From Cyanophora paradoxa CCMP329 (lineage: Eukaryota > Plantae > Glaucophyta), in assembly GCA_004431415.1 (NCBI GenBank), contig QPMI01000189.1:62001-126000 (forward strand): a stretch of DNA of 64,000 nt. Direction: 5' to 3'. The notes under the pieces were generated by a model. The model saw only the letters and a program-made list of their open reading frames with translations. It did not search any database and was not told where the DNA came from. The translations under genes were made by a program, and so were the position numbers. The number at the start of each line of letters is the position of its first letter. Position 1 is the first letter of the stretch. Shown piece by piece: positions 26,593-64,000 of the stretch.

Positions 26593-27429
26593 ACGAAAAG
26601 AACGAAAGTTGGACGAAAGTTGGACGAAAGTTGGACGAAAGTTGGACGAAAGTTTGGACGATTCACGATTGCAGTACCCCTTCACGCCCGCAGAACGGAC
26701 AGCTGCAGGGCCCTGCGCGAGCCGGCTACGCCGACCACGCCGGAAAACAGCGCTACAGTGAGCCTCCCCGCGCACTGCGCCTTTCAACCCCGCTCACGCC
26801 CCGCACGGCCAGCCTCCCGCGAACGACCAGGAATGAACACGGTGCGCCGCACGAAATCGCGCGTGCTGCGATACAAACGAGCACGATCTGGCAGGCCACC
26901 CAATCCCTCTGTGCGCTCTTCGGCGAGCAGCACTCACATTGGGCACCAGTGCGCTCCGGATCCGGATCCCTTCGATTTCGATTTCGTTTAAAATTTTGAT
27001 TTAATTTCGCGCGCGCGGCGTCGCGCAGGCGATCCGCACGGATTGCGATGGCCCCAGTACCCCAGCTTCGATCCGACGCGACGCGATGCGGCTCCACCTT
27101 ACGCACCTCCGGGGGCGGGGGAGGCCCGGTACCGGTCTCCCGGTCCGGGGCTCGTGGGGGTTTCGGCCCCCTCGGGCAGTATTCCTCCTCCTTAGCGGCC
27201 AGTCCGTGGCGGGAACGGGCGAGCCTTCGGGCACGGCCCGCACCTTTGATCCTATGATCTTAAGCCCGTAGGGTAAGTAGACCTAGGGTTTCGATCTCGA
27301 GCTTCGGTATTCGATTTCGATTTTCGACGTCACTTGCCTATCTGATTGAGCCCATGGATTCGACCGGCGGCCCACTGCTAGCCAAACAGCTGCTAGGGCT
27401 AGTCCAGATGTTGTCGGTCGTCTCTGAAA
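26593..27429 (-). mobile_element. Non-autonomous interspersed element, copy A (two conserved ~225-bp arms, 316-bp unique interior, 11-bp tandem tail)
   Basis: 26665-26886 is the reverse complement of about 37529-37750, and 27203-27428 is the reverse complement of about 36986-37211. Flanked by the direct repeat TGCACGG (26586-26592 and 27430-27436). Confidence 0.8.
26602..26661. repeat. 11-bp tandem repeat (GAAAGTTGGAC) x ~5
   Basis: acgaaagttggacgaaagttggacgaaagttggacgaaagttggacgaaagtttggacga, abutting the end of element copy A. Confidence 0.95.
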
Positions 27430-27893: not shown

Positions 27894-34841
<6,948 letters not shown>

Positions 34842-36985: not shown

Positions 36986-37753
36986 TTCAGAGACGACCGA
37001 CAACATCTGGACTAGCCCTAGTAGCTGTTTGGCTAGCAGTGGGCCGCCGGTCGAATCGTAAGGGCTCAGACAGATAGGCAAGCGACGTCGAAAATCGAAA
37101 TCGAATACCGAAGCTCGAGATCGAAACCTAGGTCTACTTACCCTACGGGCTTAAGATCATAGGATCAAAGGTGCGGGCCGTGCCCGGAGGCTCGCCCGTT
37201 CCCGCCACGGATGGTCTGGTCTGGATGGTCTGGATGGCGGCGACGATGGTCTGGAGGGCGGCGATGCAGTGAACCACGGCGATGGCGTAGCACGCGTTGC
37301 CCTCGTTCATGAACCCGAGGCGGGGCCCCAGGACGGCGGCACCCCAGACGGCGGGGCCGATCTGGCGCCGGGGGCGGGGGGGGGGCGCACGTCAGTCGGG
37401 CAAAGGCGAAAGCAAGAGGCGACCGCGGTCGATCGAGCGGGCAGATGCGAAAGCAGCCGGGATGGCGTCGGGCCAGATCGCGCGAGAGCGGGGCGAGGCG
37501 AGCGCTAGCATACGTGCGCTAGCGGGGGTCGTGCTCGTTTTTATCGCAGCACGCGCGCTTTCGTGCGGCGCACCGTGTTCATTCCTGGTCGTTCGCGGGA
37601 GGCTGGCCGTGCGGGGCGTGAGCGGGGTTGAAAGGCGCAGTGCGCGGGGAGGCTCACTGTAGCGCTGTTTTCCGGCGTGGTCGGCGTAGCCGGCTCGAGC
37701 AGGGCCCTGCAGCTGTCCGTTCTGCGGGCGTGGAGGGGTACTGCAATCGTCCA
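36986..37753 (+). mobile_element. Non-autonomous interspersed element, copy B (same arms as copy A, inverted; 317-bp different interior)
   Basis: Arms 36986-37211 and 37529-37753 match copy A with few mismatches. Possible 5-bp TSD AGTTC (36984-36988 and 37754-37758). Confidence 0.8.
37212..37361 (-). pseudogene. Captured exon fragment of a ubiquitin-specific protease (C19/USP Cys box)
   Basis: Minus strand reads ..GPRLGFMNEGNACYAIAVVHCIAAL, matching G-x-x-N-x-G-N-x-C-Y-x-x-A-V. Preceded by an intron-like CTGAC...CCAG acceptor. Confidence 0.6.
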
Positions 37754-38183
37754 AGTTCTGCGTAGCGCTCCCGGAGTCCCGGCTCCGGCTGTGGCTGCGG
37801 GTGCGACCCCGGCTGGAGCTCGGGCCTGGGCTCGGGCTCGGGATTCTGCCTCTGCTGCGGGCGCGAGCGTGGCTACGACTGCGATCGCGGCGGCGGCGGC
37901 GGCCCTGGCTGTCGTCGCCGCTACTGCTCCCGCTGCGGCTGCGGCTGCTGCTCCGCACCCTGCGCCGCGACTCTGGCGGTGTACAGTTTGCAACAGGCCA
38001 GGACGCGGACGCGCTGGCCGCGAGAGAGCGCTAGCTAGGCGCGCAGCACAGGCTGGCGACGGGCAGCGAAACAAGCTCCTGTGCCTTCTTCAAAATCATG
38101 CGACTGAAATCCGCCTGCTACTAAACACACGAAGCCTAGCCCAGCAAAAAAAGGAAGCCCGATAGAAAAGGGAGGAGGGTGGT

Positions 38184-40069
38184 TTACCACTGCTGAAGGG
38201 GGTGAGCGTGGCCGGGGCGAGGGGGGGAGGGGGGGGGGGCGAGGGGCGGACCTTGACGGTGGGGAAGAGGATGTTGCCGGGGCCGCCCTGCTGGCCCTTG
38301 TTCGGGAGGGTCGAGGTGCCCGGGGTCGGCGGGGGGCCCACTTGGGGCGAGACTATCGGCTGCGAGGGCCCCGTCGCGATGCCCACGTTGTAGTTGCCCC
38401 CCGAGGCGCCCACGCGGTCCGGCTGGAAGCCGGCCGCCACGACGGTCACGCGCATCTTCCCCTTGAGCGACTCGTCGATCACCGCGCCGAAGATGATGTT
38501 TGCCTGCGCGCCGCCGCGTCGGGCGCCGCCCGGGCGGGGCGGAGGGCGGGGGTGGGGCCGCGTGGGGGCACCTCAGAGTCCGCCATCTCGTAGATCTTCT
38601 CAGCGGCGCGCTGCACCTCGTGCAGCGTGAGGTCCGAGCCGCCCGAGACGTTGACGACGATGCCCGAGGCGCGCGAGAGCGGGAACTCGAGCAGGGGCGA
38701 CGAGATCGCCGTCTCCGCGGCGTCCTGCGCCCGCGACTTGCCGCTGCTGGTGCCGACGCCGAGGAGCGCGTGGCCCGAGTTCTCCAGGATGGACCGCACG
38801 TCCGCGAAGTCGACGTTCACGAGCCCCGGCACCGTGATGATGTCCGAGATGCCCTGCACGCCCTGCCGCAGCACGTCGTCCGCAACGTAGAAAGCCTCCT
38901 GCGCGCCCCCGAGCGAGCGAGCCCGCCGCGTCAGCGCCGGCAAACGCGCCCTGCGCGCTAGGAGCGCGGAGCGGCACCTGCACGGGGGTGTTGTCCTGCA
39001 CGGTGCGCATGAGCTTGTCGTTCGAGATGACAATGACCGCGTCGACGTGCGTCCGCAGCTCCTCCATCGCCTCGAGCGCCTGACGAGGAGTCAGCACCCA
39101 GAAAGAAAGGACGAAGAGAGAAGACGGGAAGAGAAAGTTGGGCACCTGCCGTTGCCGCCTCCGGCCCTCGAAGCTGAAAGGAACAGTGACGATGCCGACG
39201 GTGAGCTTGCCCATCTCGCGAGCCAACCGCGCGATGACCGGCGCAGCGCCGCTGCCCGTGCCGCCGCCCATGCCAGCTGTGATGAAGATGAGGTCCGAGC
39301 CCTCAATAGCTTGGCTGAGCTCCTCGCGTGACTCCTCCGCAGACTTGGCGCCGAGGGTCGGGTCGCCGCCGGTGCCTGCGAATGCGCCGTCGGGAATTGC
39401 GACGCAGCGGCGTCACATCCGACGAACGCACCGAGGCCACGAGTAAGCTTAGAGCCGATCTGAAGGCGGTTGCTAGCCGCGGACGACAGAAGCGCCTGGG
39501 CATCGGTGTTGATAGCCCAGAAGTCGACGCCCTGAATCTCGCAAGCAATCATACGGTTGACAGCGTTGCTGCCGCCGCCGCCGACGCCAAGAACTTTGAT
39601 CTTCACCTTCTCCGCGAACGGGGAGTCGCCGCTGAGCATGGACATCGCATCAGAGACGGGCTCGGCTGACGGCTCCAGGCTGAGGAAGTCATGGCTGCCG
39701 GCCTGGGTTGAGACGGTTGCTGCTGACTTCTTGCTGCGAGTCTGGAAGCGGTCGAAAGCGGGGATGCCAGCTGAGCGAGCGACGAACTGCCCGCGACGAG
39801 TCGCCTGCAGCTTTGCGGAGTTGGCCGCCTTCTTTGAATACGAAAACTGAGCCCGTGCTTCAGCCTTGCATCCCTGCTGCTGCGTGCCGCGAAAGGCGCG
39901 CGCCGAGACGCGGAGCACCCAAGTCAGTAATTGATGGGAGTCGGCGCCTTCAAAAAGGAACGGACGAGGCACCGCTTACCGGAGAAACCAGGGACTGGCT
40001 GTTAACGGCTGCGACGCCGCCGTTCGGGACAGCCGGGCGGACGGCGCCGACTGCGAACGCCGACTCCAT
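38184..40069 (-). CDS. ftsZ: Plastid division protein FtsZ (cyanobacterial type) with a transit peptide, multi-exon
   Basis: [26 protein letters not shown], tubulin signature [20 protein letters not shown]7 loop [21 protein letters not shown]-terminus [12 protein letters not shown].. is Ala/Ser-rich. Terminal exon W* at 38189-38184. Confidence 0.97.
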
Positions 40070-43417: not shown

Positions 43418-43518
43418 CCCCGCGCAAACTGCCCGCGCGCCACAGCTGCGAATACGAACAATACACGGAAAAAGGAAGAGCACTGGGGGCGGGGGAAGGG
43501 GGGTGGGAGGGGTGCGGG

Positions 43519-46500
43519 CTAGCCGGTGAAGGCGGAGAAGAGGCCGCCGAGGCGGGAGGCGGGGCGGCGGACGCGGGCGAGCTCCTCGGGCGAGAAGGCG
43601 AGCACCGTGGCGATCGCCGGCAGCAGCGCCTCGTGCTCCCCCGTCTCCATGTACTGCCGCCCCCGGCCCCACGTCAGCCGGCCCCGGCGGGCGGGGCGCC
43701 GGGGGCGGGGGCGGGCCTTCAGGATGATGTTCTTGAGGTAGGTGAGGTCCACGCGGGAGCGCTCCACCGTCAGGCTCCGCACCTGCGCGCCGGTGTGAGG
43801 CGAGGACTGGCTCTGCGGCGGGGGCGAGGGCGCTGGGGCGGGGCCGGGGGGCGGGGGCGGGCCTCGTCCTTGAGCATCTTCTGCTGCTCGAAGAGGAGCG
43901 CCTCGAGGGCCTCCTTCTCCCGGATCGTCTCCTCCCGCTCCCGCAGCGCAGCCTCCGCCGCCGCCAGCGCCCCCTGCAGCCGCTCGACCTCCTGCCCCCG
44001 CCCTCAGCCCCGCCCCGCCCCAGGCTCGCGGGCGGCGGGCGGGCCTGGGCGGCGCGGAGGACGTCGGCGCTCTCGCGGAGGGCGTCCCGCCGGCGGGCGG
44101 GCGCTGGCGCGGGCGAGGATCCCCTCCAGGATCTCCGCGTCCCTCCCCATCACGCCGCCCTGCCCCGCCCCTCCGACCCTGCCGCCCCTCACGCGGCGCC
44201 CAGGGGCGGGCCCAGAGGCGCCCCGCACCGGCGAAGCTCGCGGAGCGCCCGACGGCCTCGCGCTCGGCGCCGGGACGGGCGAGGCGGCGGCGGCGGCGGC
44301 GGCGGCGTGCGCGTGGGCGACCTGCACGGTGGCCGCCCCGAGCTGCCGCTCCGCCGCGAGGAGCCGCGCCTGCTGCCGCGCGCTCTCCACGGTCAGCTGC
44401 TTGTTCGCCCGCTGCAGCTCCGCCATCCGCTCCTCCAGCTCCGCCACCGCCGCCTCCCGCCGCCCCGCCTCCGCCTCCACCTGCTCCCGCGCCGCCGCCG
44501 CCTCGCGCCGCGCCGCCTCGAGCTCGACCTCCGCTGCGGCGGCCGGCTCGCGGGGCGGGCGGAGGGAAGAGGGGGGAGGGGCGGGGGGGACCGTCGGCCT
44601 TGGCGCGGAGGGCGGCCTCGCGGGCGCGCTCGAGGGCGGCGAGGCGGGCCTGCGTCTCCTCGTGCGCGCGCCGCTCCTCGCCCTTGCGGCGCTCCTCCCG
44701 CTCCTCGTGCTCCCGCACCGCCCGCCGCAGCCGCTCGACCTCCAGGCCCACCCCGCCCTCGTACTCCTCCTTCACGCGCGACAGCTGCCGCACCTGCCCG
44801 CCACCCGCGTCGGCGCGCAGCGGGGCCGACGAGGGCGACACCACCCCGGCCCCGCCTCGCTGCGTGTCCCGCGCTCCGACCCACCCTGCGGGCGGGCGGA
44901 CCTGGGCCTGGGCGGCGTCGAGCTCGTCCTGGAGGGAGCGGAGGGCGGTGGAGAGCTGCTGCTCCTTCTGGCTCAGCGCCAGCTGCGCCTTGGCCTTGTA
45001 GCGCCGCAGCTCCTCGTCGGCCACCTGCGCGTCGCGGCGGGCCTGCGCGAGGGCCCCCTCCGAGACGTAGGCGGCCAGCTCGAGCTCCCGCACGCGGTCC
45101 TGCATCCGCTGCCCCGCCTCCTCCCGCTCCCGCGCCGCCGCGATCCGCTCCGCCTCCACCCGCGCCTCCGCCTCCGCCAGCGCCACCTCCCCCTCCCGCC
45201 CCCGCGCCTCCCCGCCCGCCCCTCAGCCCCCCCGGCAAGGAACACCCGACACGCCCCCCGCCGCACCTTGGCCTCGGCGAGGGCGGCCTCGGCGGCGGCC
45301 CGGGCGGCCTCGGCGGCGGCGAGGGCGGCGGCGGAGTCGGCGGCGGCCTTCTCGGCGGCGGTGGCGCGGGCGGTGAGCTCCGTCATCTTGACCTGCGAGA
45401 ACTTCTTGAACTTGTCGAGCGTCGCCTGCTTCTCCCCGCCGCCTTCTGCAGGCCCGTCACCTCGCCCTCCAGCTCCGCCACCCGCCCCATCTGCTCCGCC
45501 AGCCGCTCCGACGCCCCCGCCAGCTCCCCTCCAGCTCCCGCACCCGCGCCGCCGCCGCCTCCCGCCCGCCTCGCCCTCCTCCGTCAGCGCCGGCATGCCC
45601 GGTCCACCGAGCGGGGCGCCGCCGCCCGCGCTGCCTCCAGCTCGCTTCGCAGAGCCGCGAGGGCCCGCTCGTGCGCCGCGGCGGCCGCCGCCTTGGCCCG
45701 CCGCTCCTCCTCGAGGCGCCCCGTCAGCTCCTGCGCCTCGTGCCGCAGAGCCCTGGCGCCCTGTCAGGCCCCTCCGCCCGGGGGCACTCGCGCGGGAGGG
45801 ACGGGAGCGCACTCGAGCTCAGCCGCCGCTGAGGCGGCCCCCGCCTCCGCCGTCGCTGCGGAGCGCTTCCGCGCCGCCTCCGCCTCGCGCTTGGCCGCCT
45901 CGAGCTGCTGCTGCGCCGCCGCCGCCTTCGCCTCCGCCTCCTCCCACGCCTTGCTCACCTGCGCGCCGCGTCGCGCCCCGCCGCCCTCTCGGGAGGCAGC
46001 GGAAGGGAAGCGAGGGGGCACCATGGCGAGGCTCTCCTCCATCTCCTGGACGCGCGCCTGGGCGGCGGGGCCCTGGGCGCCGCGCGCGTGCTTCCCGGCG
46101 GCCGCGTCGGCGCGCAGGGCGGCGAGCTCGTCGCGGCGGCGGCGAGGTCGGCGCGGGCGCGGGCCGCGTCGGCGTGGGCGGCCTCGAGGTCGGCCTCGGC
46201 GGCGTCGGCGCGGCCCTCGAGCTGCTGGCACGCCGCCTGCAGCGACGCCACCTCCGACTCCAGCTGCCCCGCCCGCACCCCCTCCCCGCCTCCGCCCCGC
46301 GCCCGCCGCCGCCGCCGCGCGCGCCTCGTCCCGCTCCCGCGTCAGCTCGGCAATCTGCGCCTCCAGACCCGCGAACTTCTTTTTGGAGAGGAGCTTCAGC
46401 TTCTCGAGCTGCGCCCGCGCCTCCCCGCTCTCCTTCTGCGCCGCCGCCGCCGCCGCCTCCAGCTCCGCAGCGCGCTCGCCGCCGCCCGAGCCGGCAGCCT

Positions 46501-49500
46501 CGCGCGCCTCGACGGCCTCCGCGAGGGCGGCCCGCAGGCGCGTCGCCTCGGCCGCCCCCTCCCCTAGTTCGCCCCGCAGCCGCGCCACCTCGGCCTCCAG
46601 ACCGGCGACTTGGCCCTCGTACTCCGCGTTCATCGCCCGCGCCCCTGCCGCCGCCTCCTCTTGCGCACGCACAGCGGCCGCCTCCGCCTCCTCCCGCGCC
46701 TTGGTCGCCGCCGCGAGCTCGCCCTCCAGCGCGCTCACGCGCTCCTGCAGCTGCTCGGCCACCTCGCCGGCGCCCGCCGCCGCTGCCACGCGCGCCTCCG
46801 CCTCCTCCCGCGCCTTGGTCGCCGCCGCGAGCTCGCCCTCCAGCGCGCTCACGCGCTCCTGCAGCTGCTCGGCCACCTCGCCGGCGCCCGCCGCCGCTGC
46901 CACGCGCGCCTCCGCCTCCTCCCGCGCCTTGGTCGCCGCCGCGAGCTCGCCCTCCAGCGCGTTCACGCGCTCCTGCAGCTGCTCGGCCGCCTCGCCGGCG
47001 CCCGCCGCCGCTGCCACGCGCGCCTCCGCCTCCTCCCGCGCCTTGGTCGCCGCCGCGAGCTCGCCCTCCAGCGCGCTCACGCGCTCCTGCAGCTGCTCGG
47101 CCGCCTCGCCGGCGCCCGCCGCCGCTGCCACGCGCGCCTCCGCCTCCTCCCGCGCCTTGGTCGCCGCCGCGAGCTCGCCCTCCAGTGCGCTCACGCGCTC
47201 CTGCAGCTGCTCGGCCGCCTCGCCGGCGCCCGCCGCCGCTGCCACGCGCGCCTCCGCCTCCTCCCGCGCCTTGGTCGCCGCCGCGAGCTCGGCCTCCAGC
47301 GCGCTCACGCGCTCCTGCAGCTGCTCGGCCGCCTCGCCGGCGCCCGCCGCCGCTGCCACGCGCGCCTCCGCCTCCTCCCGCGCCTTGGTCGCCGCCGCGA
47401 GCTCGCCCTCCAGTGCGCTCACGCGCTCCTGCAGCTGCTCGGCCGCCTCGCCGGCGCCCGCCGCCGCTGCCACGCGCGCCTCCGCCTCCTCCCGCGCCTT
47501 GGTCGCCGCCGCGAGCTCGGCCTCCAGCGCGCTCACGCGCTCCTGCAGCTGCTCGGCCGCCTCGCCGGCGCCCGCCGCCGCTGCCACGCGCGCCTCCGCC
47601 TCCTCCCGCGCCTTGGTCGCCGCCGCGAGCTCGCCCTCCAGTGCGCTCACGCGCTCCTGCAGCTGCTCGGCCGCCTCGCCGGCGCCCGCCGCCGCTGCCA
47701 CGCGCGCCTCCGCCTCCTCCCGCGCCTTGGTCGCCGCCGCGAGCTCGGCCTCCAGCGCGCTCACGCGCTCCTGCAGCTGCTCGGCCACCTCGCCGGCGCC
47801 CGCCGCCGCTGCCACGCGCGCCTCCGCCTCCTCCCGCGCCTTGGTCGCCGCCGCGAGCTCGCCCTCCAGTGCGCTCACGCGCTCCTGCAGCTGCTCGGCC
47901 GCCTCGCCGGCGCCCGCCGCCGCTGCCACGCGCGCCTCCGCCTCCTCCCGCGCCTTGGTCGCCGCCGCGAGCTCGCCCTCCAGTGCGCTCACGCGCTCCT
48001 GCAGCTGCTCGGCCGCCTCGCCGGCGCCCGCCGCCGCTGCCACGCGCGCCTCCGCCTCCTCCCGCGCCTTGGTCGCCGCCGCGAGCTCGCCCTCCAGCGC
48101 GCTCACGCGCTCCTGCAGCTGCTCGGCCGCCTCGCCGGCGCCCGCCGCCGCTGCCACGCGCGCCTCCGCCTCCTCCCGCGCCTTGGTCGCCGCCGCGAGC
48201 TCGCCCTCCAGTGCGCTCACGCGCTCCTGCAGCTGCTCGGCCGCCTCGCCGGCGCCCGCCGCCGCTGCCACGCGCGCCTCCGCCTCCTCCCGCGCCTTGG
48301 TCGCCGCCGCGAGCTCGCCCTCCAGTGCGCTCACGCGCTCCTGCAGCTGCTCGGCCGCCTCGCCGGCGCCCGCCGCCGCTGCCACGCGCGCCTCCGCCTC
48401 CTCCCGCGCCTTGGTCGCCGCCGCGAGCTCGCCCTCCAGCGCGCTCACGCGCTCCTGCAGCTGCTCGGCCGCCTCGCCGGCGCCCGCCGCCGCTGCCACG
48501 CGCGCCTCCGCCTCCTCCCGCGCCTTGGTCGCCGCCGCGAGCTGCTCTTCCAGGCTCGACGCTCGCTTCGACGCCTCCGCCGCCGCCGCTTCTGCGGCCG
48601 ATGCGCTGGCCTTGCTCTGGGCGCGCGCCGCCTCCAGCTCGCTCTCGAGCTTGGCGATCTGCACCGCCGGCGGGTTAGCCACGGCCGGCGGCAGTGCGGG
48701 CAACGGACACACGGTCGCCTGGAGCGCGGCGCTGGCAGTCTGGGCGTCGGCGTCGGCCTGCTGCGCGGCGCGGAGCTGCTCCTCGAAGGCGTGGGCCTGC
48801 CGCCGCGAGTCGGGCGCCGGTCGCGGCGGCAGAAGGCGGGCCCCCGCGCACCTTCGCAATCGCCTCCTCGGCGTGCGACTTGGCCTCTGCGAGCGCCGCC
48901 TCCAGCGCCTGGGCCTGCGGGGGTGCTCAAGGAGGGGGGCGGAGGCGGCGGGGGCGCCCCGCGCGCACCCGCTCGGCCTTGGCTGCGGTGAGCTCCTCCT
49001 CCAACGAAGCCGCCTTTGCTTCGGCCGCTTCCCGCAGCCGGAGCAGCTCCGCCGCCCGCTCGGCCGCCTCGCGCAGCGTCCCCTGCACTGCCTCCGCGCT
49101 CTTCGCGGCCGCCTCGAGCTCCTCTCCCCGCTTCTGCGCCTCCGACAGGGCCGCCGTACGATCTTCGATGGTCTTCTGCGCTGCTGCAATCTCTGATGCC
49201 GCCGCCTCGAGCTTCGCTGTGAGCGCCTGGACGATGTGTGCCGACTTGTCGACTTCAGCCTTGAGAGCGTCCCGCTCCTCCCGCAGGCCCGCCGCCTCAT
49301 TCTTCACCGCTTCAAGTTCCGCCGTCAACGCGCTGCTTGCGCTGTCTCCGCCCGAACCAGCCGCGCCCTGGGTTGCCACCACTCGAGCCGCCTCCAACTC
49401 CTTCGTCAAGTCCGCGATTTGGGTTTCGAGCGTCTTGAACTTGTTCTTGGCCACAACTTTGAAGCGCTCTAGCTGAGCCTTCGCCTCTGTGCATTCCTTC

Positions 49501-49707
49501 TGCGAGGTCGCCAAGGCGGCGGCCAGATCTGTGTGGCGCGTTGGCGGGGGCGCGTCTGCGCTAGAGCGTCATCGCGGCGCACCGCCGGACCCATCGGACG
49601 CGTTTATGTCCTGCCATCCGTCGCCGTCCTGTGAAAACCAGGCCGTGAGACGTCGCGTGGTCGAATCGATGCGCTATAGCAACCTATCGTTCCGAACGCA
49701 CCGCCAT
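43519..49707 (-). CDS. GRIP-domain golgin (long coiled coil, trans-Golgi tether), multi-exon
   Basis: C-terminus VDLTYLKNIILK|YMETGEHEALLPAIATVLAFSPEE is a GRIP domain. Start MA|DGDGWQDINASDGSG|DLAAALATSQKE. Continuous heptad-rich sequence in between. Confidence 0.9.
46680..48542 (-). repeat. Exonic tandem array, 114-bp (38-aa) unit x16 plus a partial unit
   Basis: The TTGGTC anchor recurs every 114 bp from 46701 to 48525. Unit LAAATKAREEAEARVAAAAGAGEAAEQLQERVSALEGE. Confidence 0.97.
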
Positions 49708-54949: not shown

Positions 54950-57523
54950 CAGATCGGCTGGCGCGCGCCACGGGAGGGGAGGTCGAGGCGCGGCTGGGGC
55001 CGGCGATCTGGCAGAGGGGGAGAGGCACAGGAAGCGGAGCGCGAAGGATGGCTGAGCTCCGCGCTGGGGGTGCTCGGGGAGGGCTGGGCGCGCTGGAGCC
55101 TGACGTGCGCGCTGGTCATCGGCGCCTTCTACCTGCTCGGCTGCACGCCCATCGGTCCGCCCCCGCACCCCGCGCCCCCTGCGCCGCCCCCGACGGCGCC
55201 CCGCCCCAGGGAAGCGCTTCTGGCGGACGGCGGACTTCTGGAAGCGGGCGCTCCCGGTCTTCTTCGCGTACAAGGCGCGCGCGCGCGCGCCGGGCGGGGC
55301 AGGGGGCGGGGGCGAGGGGCGGGGGGGCAGGGGACGCAGCGGCGGGTGCGGGAGATGGACGGGGAGAAGGCGAACGCGGAGTGGGAGGCGACGCACGAGC
55401 GCGGCTCGAAGGAGCTCTACCAGCTCTGCGTCGACGCCCGCGGCATGTTCATCAAGGCCCGCCCGCCCCGCCCCCCGCCCCGCCGGCGCGGCGCCCCGGG
55501 GCGAGGCGCGCGCAGGCGGCGCAGGTCTTCGGGGCGCGCACGGACATGCTGCCGCCGGCGTACACGACGAAGCTGCGGACGCTGTACGACCAGGTGCCCC
55601 CGCAGGAGCCGGCGACCATCCGGCGCGTCATCGAGCGCGAGCTCGGCAAGCCGCTCGAGGAGCTCTTCGAGTCGTTCGACCCCGAGCCCCTCGGCAGCGG
55701 TGCGCCCCGCCGGCCCCGCCCCGCCGGCGAGGCCCGGGCGAGGGCGGGGCGGGGCGGGCGGCAGCGTCGATCGCGCAGGTGCACAGCGCGGTGACGCGGG
55801 ACGGGGAGCGCGTGGCGGTGAAGGTCCAGCACGAGGGCGCCGAGGAGATCATGGCCCTCGGCCCGCCCCCGCCCGCCCCGCCCGCCCCGCACCGCCCCCT
55901 CACCGCCGCCCCCGCAGACCTGGGGAATCTGGAGCTGCTGGGGCGGCTCATCCAGCGCGAGGACCTCGTGCGCGGCCCGCCGGCCCCGCCCCGCGCCGCC
56001 GCGCCGGCCCCTCACCCCCGGCGGCGGCCCAGGGCTTCGACCTCGTCTCCGCGGTGCGGGAGCTCAAGGAGCAGCTGCCCCTCGAGTTCGACTTCCAGCG
56101 GCCCGCCCCTGCCCCCGCCCGCTGCCGCCCCCGCCCGCTCACTCGCGCCGGCGCAGGGAGGCCGAGATGATGTCCCGCATGCGCGAGAGCCTCGCGGTGC
56201 GCACGCCCGCCCACCCGGCCCGCCCCCTCCCTCGCTTCCCCGCCTCACGCCCGCGCCGCGCCCCCCGCAGAACCACCTGCCGGGTGCCTCCGCTGCGCGC
56301 CGCCCCCTCCCCGGGCGGCGTGGGGGGCTGAGGGCGGGGGTCAGGGATCGTGCTGCCGCGGCCGGTGGCGGCGGCGAAGCGCTGCCTGGTGATGTCCTTC
56401 CTCGACGGCACCCGCATCCTCGACGTCCGCCCGCCCCGCCCCCCGCGCCCCCGCCGCCCCGCCGCGCCCCGGCCGAGGGGGCGGGGGCAGGCGGCGCCGC
56501 ACATGGCGCCCGGGGCGGTGGGGAAGCACATGGAGGCGCTGTGCGCGCTGCTGGGGCACCAGCTCTTCATCGACGGCGTCTTTCACGCCGACCCGCACCC
56601 GGGAAACCTCCTCATCCTCCACGACGGCCGCCTCGGCCTCCTCGACTTCGGCCAGTGCAAGGAGCTCGCCCTGCCCCTGCGCCAGGCCTTCGCCCGCCAC
56701 GTCCTCGCCCTCGCCAACAACGCCCGTCGCCCCTCCCCTCCCCCCACCTCTCCCCGCTGAGGCGCGGCGGGGCGCAGGACGCGGGGGAGATCGTGACGAC
56801 GTTCCACGCCCTCGGCATCGAGACCGCCTACGACGGTGCCCCCCGCCACGCCGCCTGCTCCTCGCCGGCCGCCTGCGACCGGCTCCTCCCGCCGCAGACA
56901 TGCCCTTCCTCGTGCCGATCATCGCCCGCACGATGTTCGACACGGCGCCCATGCCCTGGGACGTGCGCCCGCCCCGGCCCCCGCCCCGCTCCGCCGGCCC
57001 GAGCCGTGGTGAGGGCGGCGGGGCAGGACGTGTCGCCCTTCTCGCCGAACAACGCGTCGAAGCGGAACCCGGTGAAGCACTTTCCCCCGGAGCTCTTCAT
57101 GGTGCTGCGTGCCAACCAGATCATGCGCGGCCTCTTCCACTCCCTCAACGTCGACGTCTCCGTCGTCAAGATCTGGGCCAAGTACGCCAAGAAGGTGCCC
57201 GGGGGGGCGCGGGGCGGGGGAGGGGGCGTAGCTGCGCTGAGCCGGGCGTCGCGCCCGCGCAGCTGCTCTTCCCCGATGCCGGGAGCATCGGGGCGTCGCT
57301 GCGGAGCCTCTTCTCCTCCTTCATGCGCTCGCCCGCGAAGAGCGAGTCAGGGCCGGGGACGCCCGACCCCGAGCCCGTCTCCCTCGGCTCCCCGCAGCTC
57401 GCGGCGGCCGCCTCGCCGGGGCCCGACGCCCCCTCCCCCAAGGACACGCCCCTCGAGCCCGCCCCCCCGCGCTCCCCCGCCCCGGGCTCCCCCGCCGCCG
57501 TCCACCGCTACAGCCTCAAATGA
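54950..57523 (+). CDS. ABC1/UbiB (ABC1K/ADCK) atypical kinase, at least 14 introns; start uncertain
   Basis: GMFIK|AAQ..RTDMLP..L..LYDQVP; [11 protein letters not shown]|ASIAQVH; VAVKVQH; LEFDFQR|EA; LVMSFLDG; [18 protein letters not shown]; LRANQIMRG. Confidence 0.93.
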
Positions 57524-58439
57524 GCGGCCGCCCCGCCGCCGCACCGCGCCGCTTCGATTTTGGCAGGGGCCCGGCCCCTGCGTCCCTGCGGTTTTTATCC
57601 GTGTTACAAGTTAGTCACTGAGTCATCAAGGTTATAATTAGCGGGGGGTTAGTTGTAGTCTGTGGGGTGTCGAGGTGTGGCGCGCTTTCATGGCTTGGAC
57701 GCCGTGACGCCTGTTGAATCACGATCATCGGATATTGAGGCCTTTCAATCATTGAATTTCGCGATCCTATGATCGCTATCGTCGGGATCAACTTGGCAAC
57801 GGATCTGACACTGTGTGACAGGGGCTCAGCGGCTGGGATTTTGATTTAGCCTGCGCAGCTGCTATTTTCAAATCTAGATCTAAAGTCGACGTCGACGTCT
57901 CAGATCTTATCCTTGAACTTCAAGCTTCGGATCGACTTACTACTAAGTTACTGATCATGCCATGATGTGTTTAAAATCGCGACTCACGATCATGATCAGT
58001 GAAACAGTGTGCACGTACTTGTATTTCAAGTTTTCTTATCCTAGCACTACGTCTACTGGAACTCAACGACTAGCTACAGCGCTAGCCTAGTAGCGCTCTT
58101 CAAGCGCTTGAAATGCGAAACCGCGAGCGGTAGTCGCTACGCTAGCGCTAGCGTTATCTACAGCTAATTATAACCGAGCGACCGACTCGGCGAGCCTTGC
58201 AATGAAGGCCTCGCGATCCGATGATCGAAATAAAAGCGGTGACATGCATATGCATGATCATGAACATGCATATGCCAGCTGGTATGAACGGAGCTGTCAT
58301 AGTATATAGCTGCCACCGTGCGTGGAAGGCCGGACCCCACTGTCGGAGCTAGCCGACTAGCTATATATAGGCGATCCGGCGATGTGCATGGAGGCAGGGC
58401 GGGGAGGGTCGGAGGGGATAACGGGAGGGAGGATGACGA

Positions 58440-59776
58440 TCACTGGGAGAAGCCCTTGCCGGCGTCGATGAGCTTCTCGTCGGGCTTGAGCTTGAGAGCG
58501 ATGCCGGCGACGTGCCGCCCCTGGAAGCGCGCCGCGTCGAGCTCCACCGCCGACGGCATCCGCTCCCCGCTCGCCCCCGCGACTGACGCCGCCGTCAGGG
58601 GCGAGCTCGAGCTGCAGGCGCGGGCGGGGGGCTCTAGCGGGGGGCCGCACTGGTGGAGGCGCCGTAGGGGGAGCCGCCCTTGACCTCCTCGACGCCCATC
58701 TGTCCCTGGAAGGCGTAGGGGAGGCCGACGAAGGCGAGGCCGTGGTGAAGGAAGAAGGGCATGACGTTGAGGATGGTGCTCTCCTGGCCCCCGTGCTGCG
58801 TCCCGCTCGACGTGATCACGCTCGCCACCTGCGAGACGTCAGAGCCGGCACGCGGCACGCCACGCGGAGGGCACTCGGCGGCCGCTACAGCTGTCTAGAT
58901 CTAGGTCTCGAGGCCGCGGGGCGGACCTTGCCGACGAGCTTGCCCTGCGCCCAGAGGGCCCCCGTGGCGTCCAGGAAGGACTGGATCTGCGAGGGCTGGC
59001 CCCCGAAGCGCGTCGGGCACCCCAGGATGATCGCCTGCGAGCCCGCGCGTCGGTGAGCTCGAGCGCGCTTAGAGTTCACAGGGGAGGAGGCGCACGTCAT
59101 AGCTAACGAGCTCCGCGGGGTCCGCCACGGGGATGGACGCCTGCGGAGCACGAGGCGCGGCCGGTGTCGGCGGCGAGCGGGCGGCAAGCAACCTTAATAA
59201 TCGTGGTTATACGTGCACGCGCGCGCACCTGCTTCGTCTGGGCCTCGAGGGCTCCCATCTTCTCGAGAACCTGCCGCCGGCCGTCAGACCAAGACGTCGA
59301 CAAGCACTCGCCAGGGCCCCAAGCGGGCCGCACCTCGCGCGGCAGGGTCTCGGGGACGCGCTTCAGTGAGACGAGCGCGCCGGCGCTCTTCGCGCCTTCC
59401 GCAGCCGCCTCACACATGGCCTTCATGTGCCCGTACGTGGAGTAGTACAGCACAAGAACCTGCGGCGCGCAGAACGTAAGAACAAAGAACAAGAATAAGT
59501 AAATAACAAAGAACAAGTAAAGAACATCTAGCTCAAGCCTTGCGACTAAGTGGGGCGCGCCGCGCGCGGCTCGCACGTGCACGTGCAAGGCCTAGGCTCG
59601 CGACGCACCTTCGCGACCTTCGGCGCTGCCGCCGGCGCAGCGGCCTGCCAGGCTGGCGGCGGAGGAGCCGGAGCAGCGGCTGCGTAGGTTGACGCGGCGG
59701 GAGGCTGCGGCGGCTGTGCGGGGTCCTGCCGCGCCGCTCTCTTCGCGCTCTTCTTGGCGCAAGGTCCGATGCCCAT
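58440..59776 (-). CDS. wrbA: WrbA/FQR1 flavodoxin-like NAD(P)H:quinone oxidoreductase with an N-terminal extension
   Basis: [20 protein letters not shown]; [27 protein letters not shown]; [25 protein letters not shown]. Start MGIGPC (possible N-myristoylation/palmitoylation). Confidence 0.95.
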
Positions 59777-60171
59777 TTCTTCGAAGCTTTCAGATTTCTC
59801 GCGCGTTTGCGTTTGCAGTGCGGGGCTGGAGGCGATGCTTTCACGCTGGCGCTGCTAGACGACTTTTACGGCCACCGAGCCGCACCGCGACGTACGTCGA
59901 TGAGCTTCTAACGTCGGTTGCGTGATAGTTTTTTTCGCTACTCGAAAAAACAGGGTGGGTACACGTTGAATTTCGTTTCAAGTTCCCGATCAATAATTAA
60001 TTATGACGTAAACCACTAGCTAGCGCTAGCGGCAGCGCCGGCAGCCTAGCGCTCGCGATCAGCGCGCCATCTGCAGCTGCAGCTCGCTGGGGCGCGCAGC
60101 CTGGCTCCGGGATCCGGCGCCAACTGCATGACCAGCCGTGCAACGGCGCACACGACGTGCACGAGCTAGGC

Positions 60172-61074
60172 CTAGGTGCCGACGGGGAGGGGTGCTCTAG
60201 AAAAAGTTCGGGGGGAGGGGCGTTCTTCGGCCCCCCCCGGCCGCGGGGCAGTGCCAGCGGCCGCGCCCGCGGCCGAGGGTGGATCTGTAGCTATAGCCCG
60301 GGGAGGCTGGCGCCGACCGGCCACATGCACACGTGCACCGCCCGGGGCAGCGACGTCGAGCTCGGGGACATCGAGGTCCACGACTCGATCCGGATGCTGT
60401 AACGGCGCCGGCGGCTGCAGAGGGCTGGCGCCGGCGCGGCGCCAGCCGGAGCCCTCCCCGAGGAGCCGCTCCATGGCGGCGGCCGCGCGACGCCCCGCGC
60501 CGTTGCCGCGCAGCTCCACCGACACCAGCGCCCCGCTCGCCTGCCGCCGCGCTCAGGCGAGGGCGCCGGGCGGGCCACGGCCCTGGCAAAGACCAAGCAT
60601 GCGCAGACCCTCAGAGAGGAGAGCACATCTTACACTCCGTCGTCCTCGAGCTGGTTCCCACTGCGCGGGCACGTGCACGGGGTCAGGCGGGCGGGAGGGG
60701 TCGAGGCGTGGGGCGGGGGCGGGGCGGGGGCGCCTGAGATCGAGGGCGGTAAGGCGGGGGTTGGCGGCGAGGGGCGCGGCGGCGAGGCGGGCGAAGGGCC
60801 GGCGGAGGCCGCAGGCGCGCAGGCGGAGGCAGGCGAGGGCGGAGGGGCCGGCGAGGAGCCCCGCGAGGGCGCCCCCCGCCTCGTCCTCCCGAAGCCGTTC
60901 ACGGAGAGGTCCAGCTCCCGCAGCGCCCCGCCCCCCGCGCCCCGCACGAAGGCCAGCAGCGGGCCCAGCGCCGGCCCCCGCAGCCCGCAGCGCGCCAGCG
61001 AGAGGCACAGCAGCGGCGCCGCGCCCGCCCGCGCACGCGCCGGGGAGCCCAGCGCCTCCAGCAGGAGCCCGAGC
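60172..61074 (-). CDS. 3' exons of an RNI-like leucine-rich-repeat protein; the upstream intron is interrupted by the AT-rich element
   Basis: LCLSLARCGL, LRELDLSVNGFG, LACLRLRACGL, LTALDLS|GNQLEDDGV, LVSVELRGNGAG. Acceptor GCGCAG ends at 61075 and a CTCAC branch-like site lies at 61089-61085. One apparent homopolymer frameshift near 60890. Confidence 0.75.
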
Positions 61075-61097
61075 CTGCGCGGGCGTGAGGGTACGGG

Positions 61098-61168
61098 ACA
61101 CATATAAAAACAAATATTATTATCCCTCGCGTTCCGCTCAGGATAATAATATTTGTTTTTATATGTGT
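61098..61168. repeat. Perfect 28-bp inverted repeat with a 15-nt loop at the element terminus
   Basis: ACACATATAAAAACAAATATTATTATCC (61098-61125) - CTCGCGTTCCGCTCA - GGATAATAATATTTGTTTTTATATGTGT (61141-61168). Confidence 0.97.
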
Positions 61169-61423
61169 GTTACTATAAGTTATATAAAGATATTAGCATT
61201 TTTATCATAGTGTATATCGATATGTGATATGTATTCTATCGGTAGTTCGTAAATGAATCAATAAAAATAATATAAGTATCGTGGAATCTTTGTAAACTAT
61301 GTATATATAATATGTAATCGCGATATAGCCGATATGTGTTTACGATGCGCGATGTGTATCTAAAACAACTACAATGTGCTGCTTGGGACGCGCCTCATAT
61401 AGTCATGTGTATCACCTACGTAG

Positions 61424-62450
61424 CTTCGATAGGGTGGGGCGGGTGGGGTGAGGTGGGGCATTTTTTTGAATTCCCTAAAATGTTTCACTCCCAAAAATTC
61501 TTGGTCAAAAAAGACCCCACCCAACCCCACTTACCCCACCCTGTATTATTCTCTTTATCTATGATTGATTTCAATGTAATTTAAATATAAATATGTATGA
61601 TTGAGTATGTTAAATTAATACTGGGTGGGGTGTGAGGGTGGGGTGTGAGTGGTATCGGTATGGTAGTCCAATCTAAGATGGCACACATAAAATCATGATG
61701 TGTTATTTTTACTTCCGGTTTGATACTTATCGGACTTCGATAACTTCGATAGGGTGGGGCGGGTGGGGTGAGGTTGGGCATTTTTTTGAATTCCCTAAAA
61801 TAATTCCCCCTCAAAAATTCTTGGTCAAAAAAGACCCCACCCAACCCCACTTACCCCACCCTGTATCTTTTATTATATTTATGATTGATTTCAATGTTAT
61901 TAATGTATAAAGTATAGAGATTATGTATGTTAAATTAATACCGGGTGGGGTGTGAGGGTGGGGTGTGAAAGTGGTATCAGCCAACCATTTAATAATTACG
62001 ATATTGAACCGACGTGATACCGACGAGATATGATATATTCAGATCGTATTAGAACGGCGCGATCACTAAGAAAAACAAGTATCATGTGCTGTATATTTCG
62101 CGATCCCTGAATCGCGAATCGATAGGGTGGGGTGAGAAAGTGGGGCACCACCCTCACTGTATACACTGTGATATGATCGCAATCCCGATGTAGCCTACTA
62201 TGATATCGTGCGGACTTCGATAGGGTGGGGTAAGTGGGGTGAGGTGGGGCATTTTTTTGAATCCCTTCAATTTTTGGGGGGTCAAATATTTTTGGGCAAA
62301 AAAGACCCCACCCAACCCCACCCTCCCCACCCTGTATTACTTATCGATACACCTCACTTATTTCAATGTATAAACTTTATTAAATTAGATAGTAAATATG
62401 TATAGAAATAACGAGATTGTAGTATAGGGTGGGGTGTAGGGTGGGGGCAA
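61424..62450. repeat. Three long direct repeats (starts 61424, 61744, 62215; collapsed copy about 62120-62161), each containing a ~115-bp imperfect G-tract/C-tract palindrome
   Basis: CTTCGATAGGGTGGGG..GTGGGGTGAGG..GGGCATTTTTTTGAA...AAAAAAGACCCCACCCAACCCCAC..CCCCACCCTGTA, each followed by an AT-rich stretch and GGGTGGGGTGT(G)AGGGTGGGG. The first two units have a 320-bp period. Confidence 0.95.
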
Positions 62451-62489
62451 AATGCAAACTGAATCAGTGCGATATAATTTAGTGAACAC

Positions 62490-62535
62490 AAAGTGGATAT
62501 GAAGTGGATACGAAGTGGATACGAAGGGGATAAGT
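62490..62535. repeat. 11-bp tandem repeat (GAAGTGGATAC) x ~4
   Basis: aagtggatatgaagtggatacgaagtggatacgaaggggataagtg. Confidence 0.85.
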
Positions 62536-62624
62536 GCGCCCCGCCCACTATGCAAGATACATGCCTTTCTTATGCATGATCTATGAAAAATAACAATAAA
62601 CCCCTCTCTCATTCTTCGAATTCT

Positions 62625-62888
62625 TTACATAGAAGCACTCACAGTAATTTCGCTTGCCTTTCGAACAGTCCCCCGATTAAATGCTTGCTCTACAATCGCT
62701 TCCTTTGTGAGTGGAATCGGAATTCCAGCAGAAATACACGATTTAACTTCTTTGTCCACAATCTCATCAATCGCAATTCTCGCCCTATTATGAGCAGCAT
62801 TATCGATCCAATCCTGAACAGAGTAGGCACAGTATTCCATTCCCAGTTTTTCAGTATCAGTTAGAACCACTTGATAGATGTTCGACAT
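62625..62888 (-). CDS. 87-aa viral protein of a family typically found next to tail-fibre/C1q genes in aquatic phages and algal viruses
   Basis: Intron-less, AT-rich ORF with LTDTEKLGMEYCAYSVQDWIDNAAHNRARIAIDEIV. The motif is recalled from phage/virus hypothetical proteins, not verified by search. Confidence 0.7.
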   Translation of the reverse strand: MSNIYQVVLTDTEKLGMEYCAYSVQDWIDNAAHNRARIAIDEIVDKEVKSCISAGIPIPLTKEAIVEQAFNRGTVRKASEITVSASM

Positions 62889-62925
62889 TTCTAATCTTAC
62901 TATTTATGAAGAAAATAATCAATTG

Positions 62926-63987
62926 CTAACAGCAAAGATGATATATGTATAAGGTAGATCGATTATCAATTGTTACAGCTCCATTGGAAAGCCCTGTCCA
63001 TCCCCTGAAATATATTGTATCATTTGCAGCCAAGTTTAATATATACGTTGCATTCATAGCCGCATCTACATTAATAGCTGTATATGCACCCCCTGTCCAA
63101 TTAGAATGATCATTTGTTGCTCCATTATAGACAAAGGTTACACCAGTTACAGTAGCTGATTCAGTATTTGTAAACCTCAGATGAACATTGAATAAATATT
63201 TTCCAGATGCAGGAGCTGTAAATTTATACGTCGTTGTATTAAAAGCACTTCCACCTGAGCTTGAAATCACGTTATTGAATGGAATATTGAATATACCGAT
63301 ACTTGCTGTTGAAGATGTTGCTGATCGAACTCGCCAGTAAGAATGATTTGGAAGAGCAAGATAGCTATCCGTTCCATTAATTGTTAAACCTCTAAATGTC
63401 GTTGTGGCACTATTATTAGTTACAGTGGATGTGAAAGTAGAAGCAATATTAGCCCCATCTCGTTTAATGACCACTTCTGAGTTTCCTCCTGAGTCGATTG
63501 AATTCGTTTTAACCCCACCACTCGCTGTAAGAAGCCCTGAAAAAGTCCCAGTGCTTCCACTAACACCACCATTTGCTGTGAGTAATCCAGTAAATGAGCC
63601 CGTCCCACTAACTGTCGCATTCCCATTGACCCCTAAGCCAGTCCCAATCCATGCCCCGCCACTAACTACTTGAAAAGCCGCGGAATTCCTATTAGCCGGA
63701 TTGAAATCCGTTTGATAATCCGGTTGACCTTCATATAGATTATCTTTGGTAAACAGATCCCCTGTTTTTGCGGGTCGATTAGATACGATCATTTGAGTAG
63801 CTTTAACGATTCCACCAGCCTTGTCGGCTCTGAGTTCTTTGACTCTGAGAATGGAGTTCTCATTGAAAGAATCGGATTTCGCTGTTTCAGTCGAAGGGAA
63901 TGACTCGTTTAGATCATAGACTGTGTGTTGAACATTATGGACAGCACTGGCTGATAAGGAAAACACAGGTGTGAATACAGTCGACAT
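62926..63987 (-). CDS. 353-aa viral fibre/adhesin-like protein with a Gly/Thr-rich shaft and C-terminal C1q-like domain
   Basis: Shaft: AFQVVSGGAWIGTGLGVNGN, TGSFTGLLTANGG/TGTFSGLLTASGG. C1q-like head: IPFNNVI...FNTTTYKFTAPASGKYLFNVHL...YILNLAANDTIYF. No introns. Confidence 0.8.
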   Translation of the reverse strand: MSTVFTPVFSLSASAVHNVQHTVYDLNESFPSTETAKSDSFNENSILRVKELRADKAGGIVKATQMIVSNRPAKTGDLFTKDNLYEGQPDYQTDFNPANRNSAAFQVVSGGAWIGTGLGVNGNATVSGTGSFTGLLTANGGVSGSTGTFSGLLTASGGVKTNSIDSGGNSEVVIKRDGANIASTFTSTVTNNSATTTFRGLTINGTDSYLALPNHSYWRVRSATSSTASIGIFNIPFNNVISSSGGSAFNTTTYKFTAPASGKYLFNVHLRFTNTESATVTGVTFVYNGATNDHSNWTGGAYTAINVDAAMNATYILNLAANDTIYFRGWTGLSNGAVTIDNRSTLYIYHLCC

Positions 63988-64000
63988 CTTTTGATTGTTC

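What the first reader, a model, noticed from the sequence alone, without database searches (positions are those of the whole stretch)
61091..64000. AT-rich endogenous DNA virus integrated inside an intron of a host LRR gene
Seen: host GC-rich sequence stops a few bases beyond the branch site and acceptor of an LRR-gene intron. It is replaced by AT-rich DNA with structured non-coding repeats and two intron-less, closely spaced ORFs (a C1q-tipped fibre and a small phage-like protein). Established: Polinton-like viruses, Mavericks and virophages integrate as AT-rich islands with long terminal repeats in GC-rich protist genomes and often carry fibre genes near the ends. Inference: this is one terminus of an apparently intact provirus that leaves the host splice acceptor untouched, so the host gene might survive by splicing out the whole virus.
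Basis: partly seen in the sequence, partly recalled or inferred. Interest (0 to 1): 0.85.

Follow-up and report, generated by a model that had tools for sequence, protein, structure and literature searches.

The report
Hairpin-ended endogenous virus inside host intron
This is one end of an AT-rich, virus-like element repeated in the genome, sitting 23 bases before a splice acceptor of a host gene and carrying a phage-type fibre gene pair whose tip likely differs between copies; it is likely a Polinton-like virus or virophage, a common kind, and it more likely breaks the host gene than gets spliced out.

Summary
The junction is real, but the element starts at 61098, not 61091. Every 31-mer across it occurs in run contigs. 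The terminus has 22-28 times host depth in 3 of 3 DNA runs laid and joins other host flanks, so it marks a dispersed family (about 14 elements if both ends match). It opens with a perfect 28-bp palindrome, then three hairpin-like repeats, an 87-aa gene and a 353-aa C1q-tipped fibre gene. The 87-aa protein's context-bearing relatives lie in tailed phages, 42 of 53 directly behind a C1q-like gene. The fibre's N-terminus is multi-copy, its tip single-copy. Best reading (0.65): the left terminal repeat of a Polinton-like virus or virophage of the palindrome-ended kind. Capsid, ATPase, integrase, far end, target duplication and upstream LRR exons lie outside the window and could not be tested, so 'intact provirus' is unshown. 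Splicing out the virus is unlikely: neighbouring introns are 56-73 nt, the viral genes lie in the LRR gene's sense, and intronic virophage insertions are already reported. New detail: the phage-type C1q gene pair with copy-specific tips in a eukaryotic endogenous virus. Interest 0.42.

The parts
61098..64000 (.). Left end of a multi-copy AT-rich virus-like element; continues beyond the window
   Evidence: GC 39.5%; multi-copy contig begins exactly at 61098; 5, 5 and 2 contigs run over the ends of the laid stretch and summed depth stays high up to 64000
61098..61168 (.). Terminal palindrome: perfect 28-bp arms (61098-61125, 61141-61168), 15-nt loop; predicted hairpin, possibly a replication primer
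   Evidence: role inferred from 10.64898/2026.07.28.741278 section 7
61098..62562 (.). Putative terminal inverted repeat (at least 1.45 kb), non-coding
   Evidence: contigs at 22-29 times host depth; variants diverge at 62533 (table 7); far end not visible, so TIR is inferred
61421..61660 (.). Subterminal repeat 1: G-tract arm, C-tract arm, further G-tracts
   Evidence: D1, D4, I5; fold z -4.55; no Rfam family at gathering score
61741..61985 (.). Subterminal repeat 2 (89% to repeat 1 over 171 nt)
   Evidence: fold z -2.78
62212..62450 (.). Subterminal repeat 3 (67% to repeat 1 ungapped)
   Evidence: fold z -4.92
62481..62535 (.). Short 11-nt tandem repeat
   Evidence: D5
62625..62888 (-). 87-aa helical protein of an unnamed phage family; likely partner or assembly helper of the fibre
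   Evidence: function inferred from gene order only
62926..63987 (-). 353-aa fibre: shared N-terminal domain (about 1-120), G/T-rich stalk, C1q tip (234-339)
   Evidence: residues 135-353 lie in a single-copy contig, N-terminal part multi-copy
61075..61097 (-). Surviving 3' end of a host intron: CTCAC branch-like site at 61089, acceptor AG at 61076-61075
   Evidence: sequence; same signature as RNA-supported introns of neighbouring genes
60734..61074 (-). Host LRR-type exon; the frame break at 60887 is an error of the window's assembly
   Evidence: (table 4)
60661..60733 (-). 73-nt GC-AG intron of the LRR gene
   Evidence: inferred from the reading frame
60175..60660 (-). Remaining 3' exons of the LRR gene; exact exon borders unresolved

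Best explanation
61098-64000 is one end of an integrated, multi-copy DNA element with a terminal palindrome and a phage-type fibre gene pair; it is likely a Polinton-like virus or virophage that inserted without sequence preference into a short intron of a host LRR gene and likely disrupts that gene. Steps. (1) Shown: about 27 termini begin at the same base and join different host flanks. (2) Inferred: they are both ends of about 14 elements with terminal inverted repeats of at least 1.45 kb, placed by an element-encoded integrase. (3) Inferred from a published model: after excision the palindrome would fold back and prime replication, so a primase-helicase-type rather than a protein-primed polymerase is predicted. 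(4) Shown: the fibre has a shared N-terminus and a single-copy tip, and a second single-copy contig lies between the same flanks. Inferred: the N-terminus anchors the fibre on the capsid, the C1q tip binds the host cell or a helper giant virus, and the 87-aa protein helps the tip assemble; the pair was likely taken from a tailed phage. (5) Inferred: a 60-70-nt intron became at least 40 times longer and now holds same-strand viral genes, so LRR transcripts would likely end early or mis-splice.
For: Junction: a single-copy contig 59202-61125 (depth 72.8, 98.8, 54.3) runs into the terminus in 3 of 3 DNA runs; in X9 overlapping records cover every 31-mer from host into element. Copy number: terminus/host depth 26.9, 27.6, 21.7, while the equally AT-rich tip contig gives 0.75, 1.1, 0.85, so GC bias does not explain it. 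Other sites: a 2152-nt single-copy contig ends in the terminus with a different flank, and four classes of flanking base carry about 11, 3, 3 and 3 copies (8 of 12 pieces shown). Summed depth in the fibre at 63703-63714 is 13-14 times host, half the terminus. A contig joining 62729 to 63524 with 30 letters a side at single-copy depth in 3 of 3 runs fits another copy with another tip. Palindrome; parallel in virophage subtypes 1, 2, 5, 6 and PLV subtype 4 of Halocafeteria. Known class traits: low GC, no introns, TIRs 0.2-2.3 kb, no site specificity (PMC8547959), phage-like fibres with adjacent chaperones (PMC12220804). Gene pair: C1q-like ORF directly upstream of 42 of 53 phage relatives, against 116 of 981 ORFs overall; 9 of 9 directly upstream genes tested have Pfam C1q. 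Constant N-terminus with variable C1q tip is also reported for pelagiphages (PMC3909814).
Against: No capsid, ATPase, polymerase or integrase gene is visible and no genome is held, so class membership is untested. Contigs do not link this flank to this copy's inner genes; that rests on the window's assembly. The runs may be the source strain and are not independent. Depth is a rough measure; the 13-14-fold figure is a sum over contigs at 90% likeness or more and may be off. The four real relatives of the fibre N-terminus have no genomic context and none was found in IMG/VR or JGI contigs. My C1q profile was seeded with 11 proteins of the same loci. The terminus reads 5'-AC, not the Maverick 5'-AG (recalled). 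Loss of the LRR gene was not observed, only argued.
Confidence: 0.65

Rival explanations
1. One reading: an intact provirus is removed from the pre-mRNA as one giant intron, so the LRR gene keeps working.
For: Branch site and acceptor are intact; the exon behind them is an open frame once the assembly indel is allowed for; the host contig runs unbranched through 61091-61097 in 3 of 3 DNA runs, so no common empty allele is assembled.
Against: Neighbouring introns are 56, 62, 64, 68, 68 and 73 nt, four of them backed by RNA contigs. Viral genes lie in the LRR sense and point at the acceptor. A recent insertion also leaves an open exon. The one other flank read shows no intron signal. Contigs drop rare alleles.
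Confidence: 0.1
2. The visible end belongs to a deleted or non-autonomous derivative: repeats and fibre cargo without core genes, moved in trans by full-length relatives.
For: Only termini and accessory genes are visible; partial elements are common (105 of 138 Cafeteria elements were not complete, PMC8547959).
Against: Both ORFs are open and full length against relatives; inner sequence is multi-copy up to the window's end.
Confidence: 0.12
3. The element is another kind of linear DNA virus or plasmid: a giant-virus (Nucleocytoviricota) or mirusvirus insertion, or a transpoviron-like replicon with hairpin ends.
For: Hairpin ends and phage-like fibres also occur in large DNA viruses (recalled); no marker gene fixes the class.
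Against: About 27 near-identical termini at dispersed sites with a 1.45-kb shared end fit 15-30-kb integrating viruses (PMC10120064) better than rare giant insertions.
Confidence: 0.11
4. Chimeric assembly of host DNA with a contaminating tailed phage.
For: The 87-aa protein's relatives with context are all in phage-type contigs.
Against: The junction 31-mers are in short-read contigs at host depth, the terminus joins at least two different host flanks, and its depth tracks host depth in 3 of 3 runs.
Confidence: 0.02

Closest known systems
Palindrome-ended endogenous virophages (subtypes 1, 2, 5, 6) and PLV subtype 4 of Halocafeteria seosinensis (bioRxiv 10.64898/2026.07.28.741278; passages and section 7 read, supplements closed)
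   Same: Palindrome at the very end of the element, next to host DNA; low GC; many copies per genome
   Different: Here 28-bp arms with a 15-nt loop (71 nt) against 52 nt for their subtype 5; 'fiber' does not occur in that main text; core genes here untested
Endogenous mavirus-like elements (EMALEs) of Cafeteria burkhardae (PMC8547959; passages read)
   Same: AT-rich island in a 70% GC host, intron-less genes, TIRs 0.2-2.3 kb, no site specificity, insertions in genes including 2 in introns
   Different: No sequence link to mavirus shown here; target duplication and core genes not testable
Protist PLVs with phage-like fibres (PMC12220804; section 13 part 1 of 2, passages, and a word search of its two supplements; PMC10120064, passages)
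   Same: Modular phage-type fibre with an adjacent small helper gene; expansion by repeated insertion
   Different: Their fibre inventory names S74 chaperone, LamG, collagen, PTR, BppL, discoidin; 'C1q' has 0 occurrences in text and supplements. The 87-aa partner has no Pfam match at cut-off (0 of 50 members)
C1q receptor-binding proteins of pelagiphages and cyanophages (PMC3909814, passages; Synechococcus phage S-SRM01, Limnohabitans phage DC33)
   Same: C1q tip at the C-terminus, constant N-terminus with variable tip, same small gene directly downstream
   Different: Here the pair sits in an element integrated in a eukaryotic genome; the N-terminal domain was not found in any of the phage loci
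Maverick/Polinton transposons
   Same: Large integrated DNA element with long terminal repeats
   Different: Terminus 5'-AC rather than 5'-AG (recalled; source paper not held); pPolB is predicted to be absent but untested

Membership tests
Polinton-like viruses / virophages | Double-jelly-roll major capsid protein | not testable with these tools
   window ends 2.9 kb into the element; no genome held
Polinton-like viruses / virophages | A32/FtsK packaging ATPase and minor capsid protein | not testable with these tools
   outside the window
Polinton-like viruses / virophages | RVE integrase or tyrosine recombinase | not testable with these tools
   outside the window
Polinton-like viruses / virophages | Terminal inverted repeats of hundreds of bases to 2 kb | tested here: inconclusive
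   61098-62562 at 22-29 times host depth, fibre interior at 13-14 times: the 2:1 ratio expected of TIRs, but the far end is not seen
Polinton-like viruses / virophages | Target-site duplication and length of 14-40 kb | not testable with these tools
   needs the far end
Polinton-like viruses / virophages | Dispersed multi-copy integration without site specificity | tested here: met
   second host flank and four flank-base classes in X9; depth ratios in 3 of 3 runs
Polinton-like viruses / virophages | Low GC against host; compact, intron-less genes | tested here: met
   39.5% vs 73.6% GC, 37-nt gap between ORFs
Palindrome-ended virophages/PLVs (Halocafeteria type) | Palindrome of 20 nt or more at the extremity, adjoining host DNA | tested here: met
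   28-bp perfect arms starting at the first element base
Palindrome-ended virophages/PLVs (Halocafeteria type) | Non-pPolB replication gene with RVE integrase | not testable with these tools
   outside the window
Maverick/Polinton | pPolB plus RVE integrase | not testable with these tools
   outside the window
Maverick/Polinton | 5'-AG terminus (recalled, not from a call) | tested here: not met
   element begins 5'-AC at 61098
Phage C1q fibre + small partner module | C-terminal C1q domain on a fibre-like protein | tested here: met
   Pfam C1q 25.6 bits, cut-off 23.7; phrog_15750
Phage C1q fibre + small partner module | Small-gene family directly downstream, same strand | tested here: met
   42 of 53 phage cases with an upstream ORF; window gap 37 nt
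Phage C1q fibre + small partner module | Chaperone or structural role of the small protein | not testable with these tools
   gene order only; no Pfam family at cut-off; best fold match Z 4.7, rmsd 2.5, 50 aligned, not significant

The most novel reading that the evidence does not exclude
The genome stores a family of about 14 hairpin-primed endogenous viruses that keep one capsid anchor and one phage-derived helper gene but swap C1q receptor tips like marine phages do, and this copy is tolerated because the host splices the whole virus out as an intron hundreds of times its normal size, keeping the LRR gene alive. The tip-swapping half alone has about even odds; the splicing half is the long shot.
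Probability: 0.08. Interest if true: 0.8.

Novelty: new variant of a known kind. Interest (0 to 1): 0.42.

Why it matters
Endogenous PLVs and virophages are common in protist genomes (PMC10120064), so the insertion itself is ordinary. Two details are useful. First, the family offers a test case for the recently proposed hairpin-primed replication of palindrome-ended elements: it predicts a non-pPolB replication gene. Second, a two-gene phage module (C1q tip plus an uncharacterised 87-aa partner) with copy-specific tips suggests that these elements vary their attachment protein within one genome; I found no report of C1q fibres in PLVs or virophages. If spliced LRR mRNA were found across the virus, it would show that a short-intron genome can neutralise a provirus by splicing, which would be surprising.

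Tried and rejected
Whole genome: none held. Context for the element: terminal 25-mer absent from IMG/VR; repeat pattern absent from JGI metagenomes; a looser repeat pattern gave 47 IMG/VR loci, none with the fibre, C1q or small gene; L143 had two inverted matches but is an unrelated 60%-GC primase element. Full fibre: 0 of 7159 candidates, 0 loci; N-terminal profile: 0 loci in IMG/VR and JGI. P0054 and P0055 were dropped as repeat or low-complexity matches. Atlas search of the N-terminus: best 0.88, a lead only; the Atlas search of the small protein did not complete. Fold of the N-terminus failed (pLDDT 35). Fold of the small protein was good (pLDDT 88.6) but gave no significant match; many top rows are ribbon-helix-helix proteins at Z 4.7 or less. 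Complex prediction of tip trimer with three small proteins: no verdict, score 0.00, alignments not used. Rfam: 27 matches, all far below gathering score, generic hairpins. RNA: no RNA holder listed; the one RNA? run laid (X15, 1 of 10) shows no listed piece on the LRR exons, and depth-3 pieces on a terminus and on a fibre paralogue that may be DNA; none of this is used as evidence. Tree of 68 small proteins (quick method; careful search unfinished): the window's protein is on a long branch, no donor can be named. Host lineage: an FtsZ search of prokaryote genomes was uninformative; lineage left open. A 14-mer shared by the palindrome loop and a host intron end at 17867 was set aside as likely chance. 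Earlier findings: 4 look-ups, nothing. The original Polinton paper is not held.
Full report
Observation. The window is GC-rich eukaryotic DNA (73.6% up to 61097) that changes within a few bases to 39.5% GC. On the minus strand the host side is the 3' part of an LRR-type gene: 23 nt of intron end (61097-61075, CTCAC at 61089, acceptor GCAG), an exon 61074-60734, a 73-nt GC-AG intron and further exons. The LRR label rests on four LxxLxLxxN/C motifs; Pfam gives only E 0.24. The apparent frameshift at 60887 is an error of the window: 3 of 3 DNA runs carry one more base there.

Is the junction real? No whole genome is held. Fourteen DNA? runs of one organism hold 81-83% of the sampled words; I laid 3 of them and 1 of 10 RNA? 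runs, then one DNA run on the junction alone. In all three DNA runs a single-copy contig covers 59202-61125. It holds only 28 letters of the element, short of the tool's 31-letter rule for a bridge, but in X9 the records 61096-61126, 61097-61127 and 61098 onward overlap it, so every 31-mer across the junction is present. These runs may be the source strain, so they check the assembly and are not independent biology. Contigs cannot link this flank to this copy's inner genes.

Where the element starts, and how many there are. The high-depth contig begins exactly at 61098 in all three runs, at 26.9, 27.6 and 21.7 times the depth of the host contig, while an equally AT-rich contig over the fibre tip has 0.75-1.1 times. 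In X9 the terminus is entered from several sides: a 2152-nt single-copy contig with a different host flank, and flank-base classes of about 11, 3, 3 and 3 copies (8 of 12 pieces shown). So 61091-61097 is host DNA, and the terminus belongs to a dispersed family of about 27 ends. The stretch to 62562 stays at 22-29 times; inside the fibre gene at 63703-63714 summed depth is 13-14 times. That 2:1 ratio is what terminal inverted repeats on about 14 elements would give, but summed depth is rough and the far end is unseen.

Anatomy of the end. The first 71 bases are a perfect palindrome with 28-bp arms, far beyond chance (z -13.7; longest 11 bp in 30 shuffles, 13 bp in the host part). Three longer repeats follow, each with G-tract and C-tract arms; none is an Rfam family. 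[quoted passage not shown] This is the closest described parallel.

The two genes. The 353-aa protein ends in a C1q domain. Its first 120 residues have four credible relatives among 1.84 billion representatives (P0050-P0053, 36-59% identity; two further hits dropped), and two of these also end in C1q; none has context. Residues 135-353 lie in a single-copy contig, whereas the N-terminal part is multi-copy with many variants; a further single-copy contig joins 62729 to 63524 with 30 letters a side in 3 of 3 runs, as another copy with a different tip would. The same pattern of constant N-terminus and variable C1q tip is described for pelagiphage receptor-binding proteins (PMC3909814, passages). 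The 87-aa protein has 49 relatives, 81 loci in all from IMG/VR and phage records. Among 60 distinct relatives, 53 have an ORF of 100 aa or more directly upstream and 42 of these are C1q-like, against 116 of 981 ORFs overall (the profile was seeded with 11 proteins of these loci; Pfam independently gave C1q for 9 of 9 directly upstream genes and 11 of 13 proteins sent). Ten of the other 11 are 120-128-aa ORFs, the one tested being a tail-fibre assembly protein. I scanned 51 of 139 long ORFs from 19 of these loci against PHROGs: named hits were phage tail, head, terminase, lysis, replication and metabolic functions. The protein folds as four helices with no significant match. A helper role for the fibre is inferred from gene order alone, and the direction phage-to-element from the distribution of relatives; the tree names no donor.

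Fate of the host gene. Introns of the neighbouring genes are 56, 62, 64, 68 (ABC1 kinase), 68 (flavodoxin-like gene) and 73 nt (LRR); four are backed by RNA contigs, the three ABC1 introns summing exactly to the 182 nt missing from the RNA contig. The element makes such an intron at least 40 times longer, several hundred times if it has the usual 15-30 kb (PMC10120064, passages). Both viral genes lie on the LRR strand and point at the acceptor. Sparing the acceptor needs no special mechanism. In Cafeteria 15 virophage sites lay in genes, 2 in introns, with no site specificity (PMC8547959, passages). In favour of survival: the exon is still open, and no empty allele is assembled. I put splice-out at about 0.1; it was not testable. 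A search for such a case listed 15 of 23 papers, with 'spliced out' in none of the virus papers (listing only).

Class and novelty. Works like: an integrating mid-size DNA virus with long terminal repeats, hairpin ends and a variable attachment fibre. Membership of the Polinton-like viruses or virophages is likely but untested, as every defining gene lies outside the window; the Maverick 5'-AG end (recalled) is not met. PLVs with phage-like fibres and adjacent chaperones are well described (PMC12220804, section 13 part 1 of 2), but C1q does not occur in that text or its two supplements, nor in the 20 of 291 virophage and polinton papers listed. I therefore rate it a new variant of a known kind, interest 0.42. 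The host lineage was not established; an intron-containing FtsZ with a plastid-type motif (recalled) points to an alga.

Noticed in passing
window 61103-60630 (minus): An ATG inside the terminal palindrome (61103-61101) is in frame through the 23-nt intron remnant into the LRR exon, so the element's end could supply a start codon for a truncated LRR protein; may be chance.
   Followed up: no
window 62907-62901 (minus): ATAAATA lies between the fibre stop and the small gene's start; the same motif is within 40 nt upstream in 26 of 53 phage loci. It resembles T4-type and poxvirus-type late promoters (recalled). Post hoc, in AT-rich DNA.
   Followed up: partly
window 61421-62450: GGGTGGGG occurs 12 times on one strand and 7 on the other in 1.5 kb, against 4 and 3 in the 61-kb host part: possible protein-binding iterons or G-quadruplex sites in the terminal repeat.
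   Followed up: partly
window 38100-39700 (minus): Intron-containing FtsZ gene with the motif [11 protein letters not shown], plastid/cyanobacterial type by recall; suggests an algal host.
   Followed up: partly
window 43500-49600 (minus): GRIP-domain coiled-coil gene with a near-perfect 114-nt tandem array at about 46700-48500.
   Followed up: no
window 56000-60733: GC-AG introns seem frequent: 2 of the 6 introns delimited here start with GC.
   Followed up: partly
window 26745-26812 (+) and 37603-37672 (-): An identical 70-nt or longer sequence occurs twice in opposite orientation; possibly a small host repeat or transposon end.
   Followed up: no
L004:7027-10267, L002, L078 and other cyanophage-type loci: The C1q gene plus small gene unit is repeated in tandem in some phage genomes; the small family has no Pfam model.
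   Followed up: partly
window 28600-33100 and 20150-21250 (minus): Host BRWD/PHIP-like gene (WD40, ancillary domain, bromodomain) and a DUF2465 gene.
   Followed up: no
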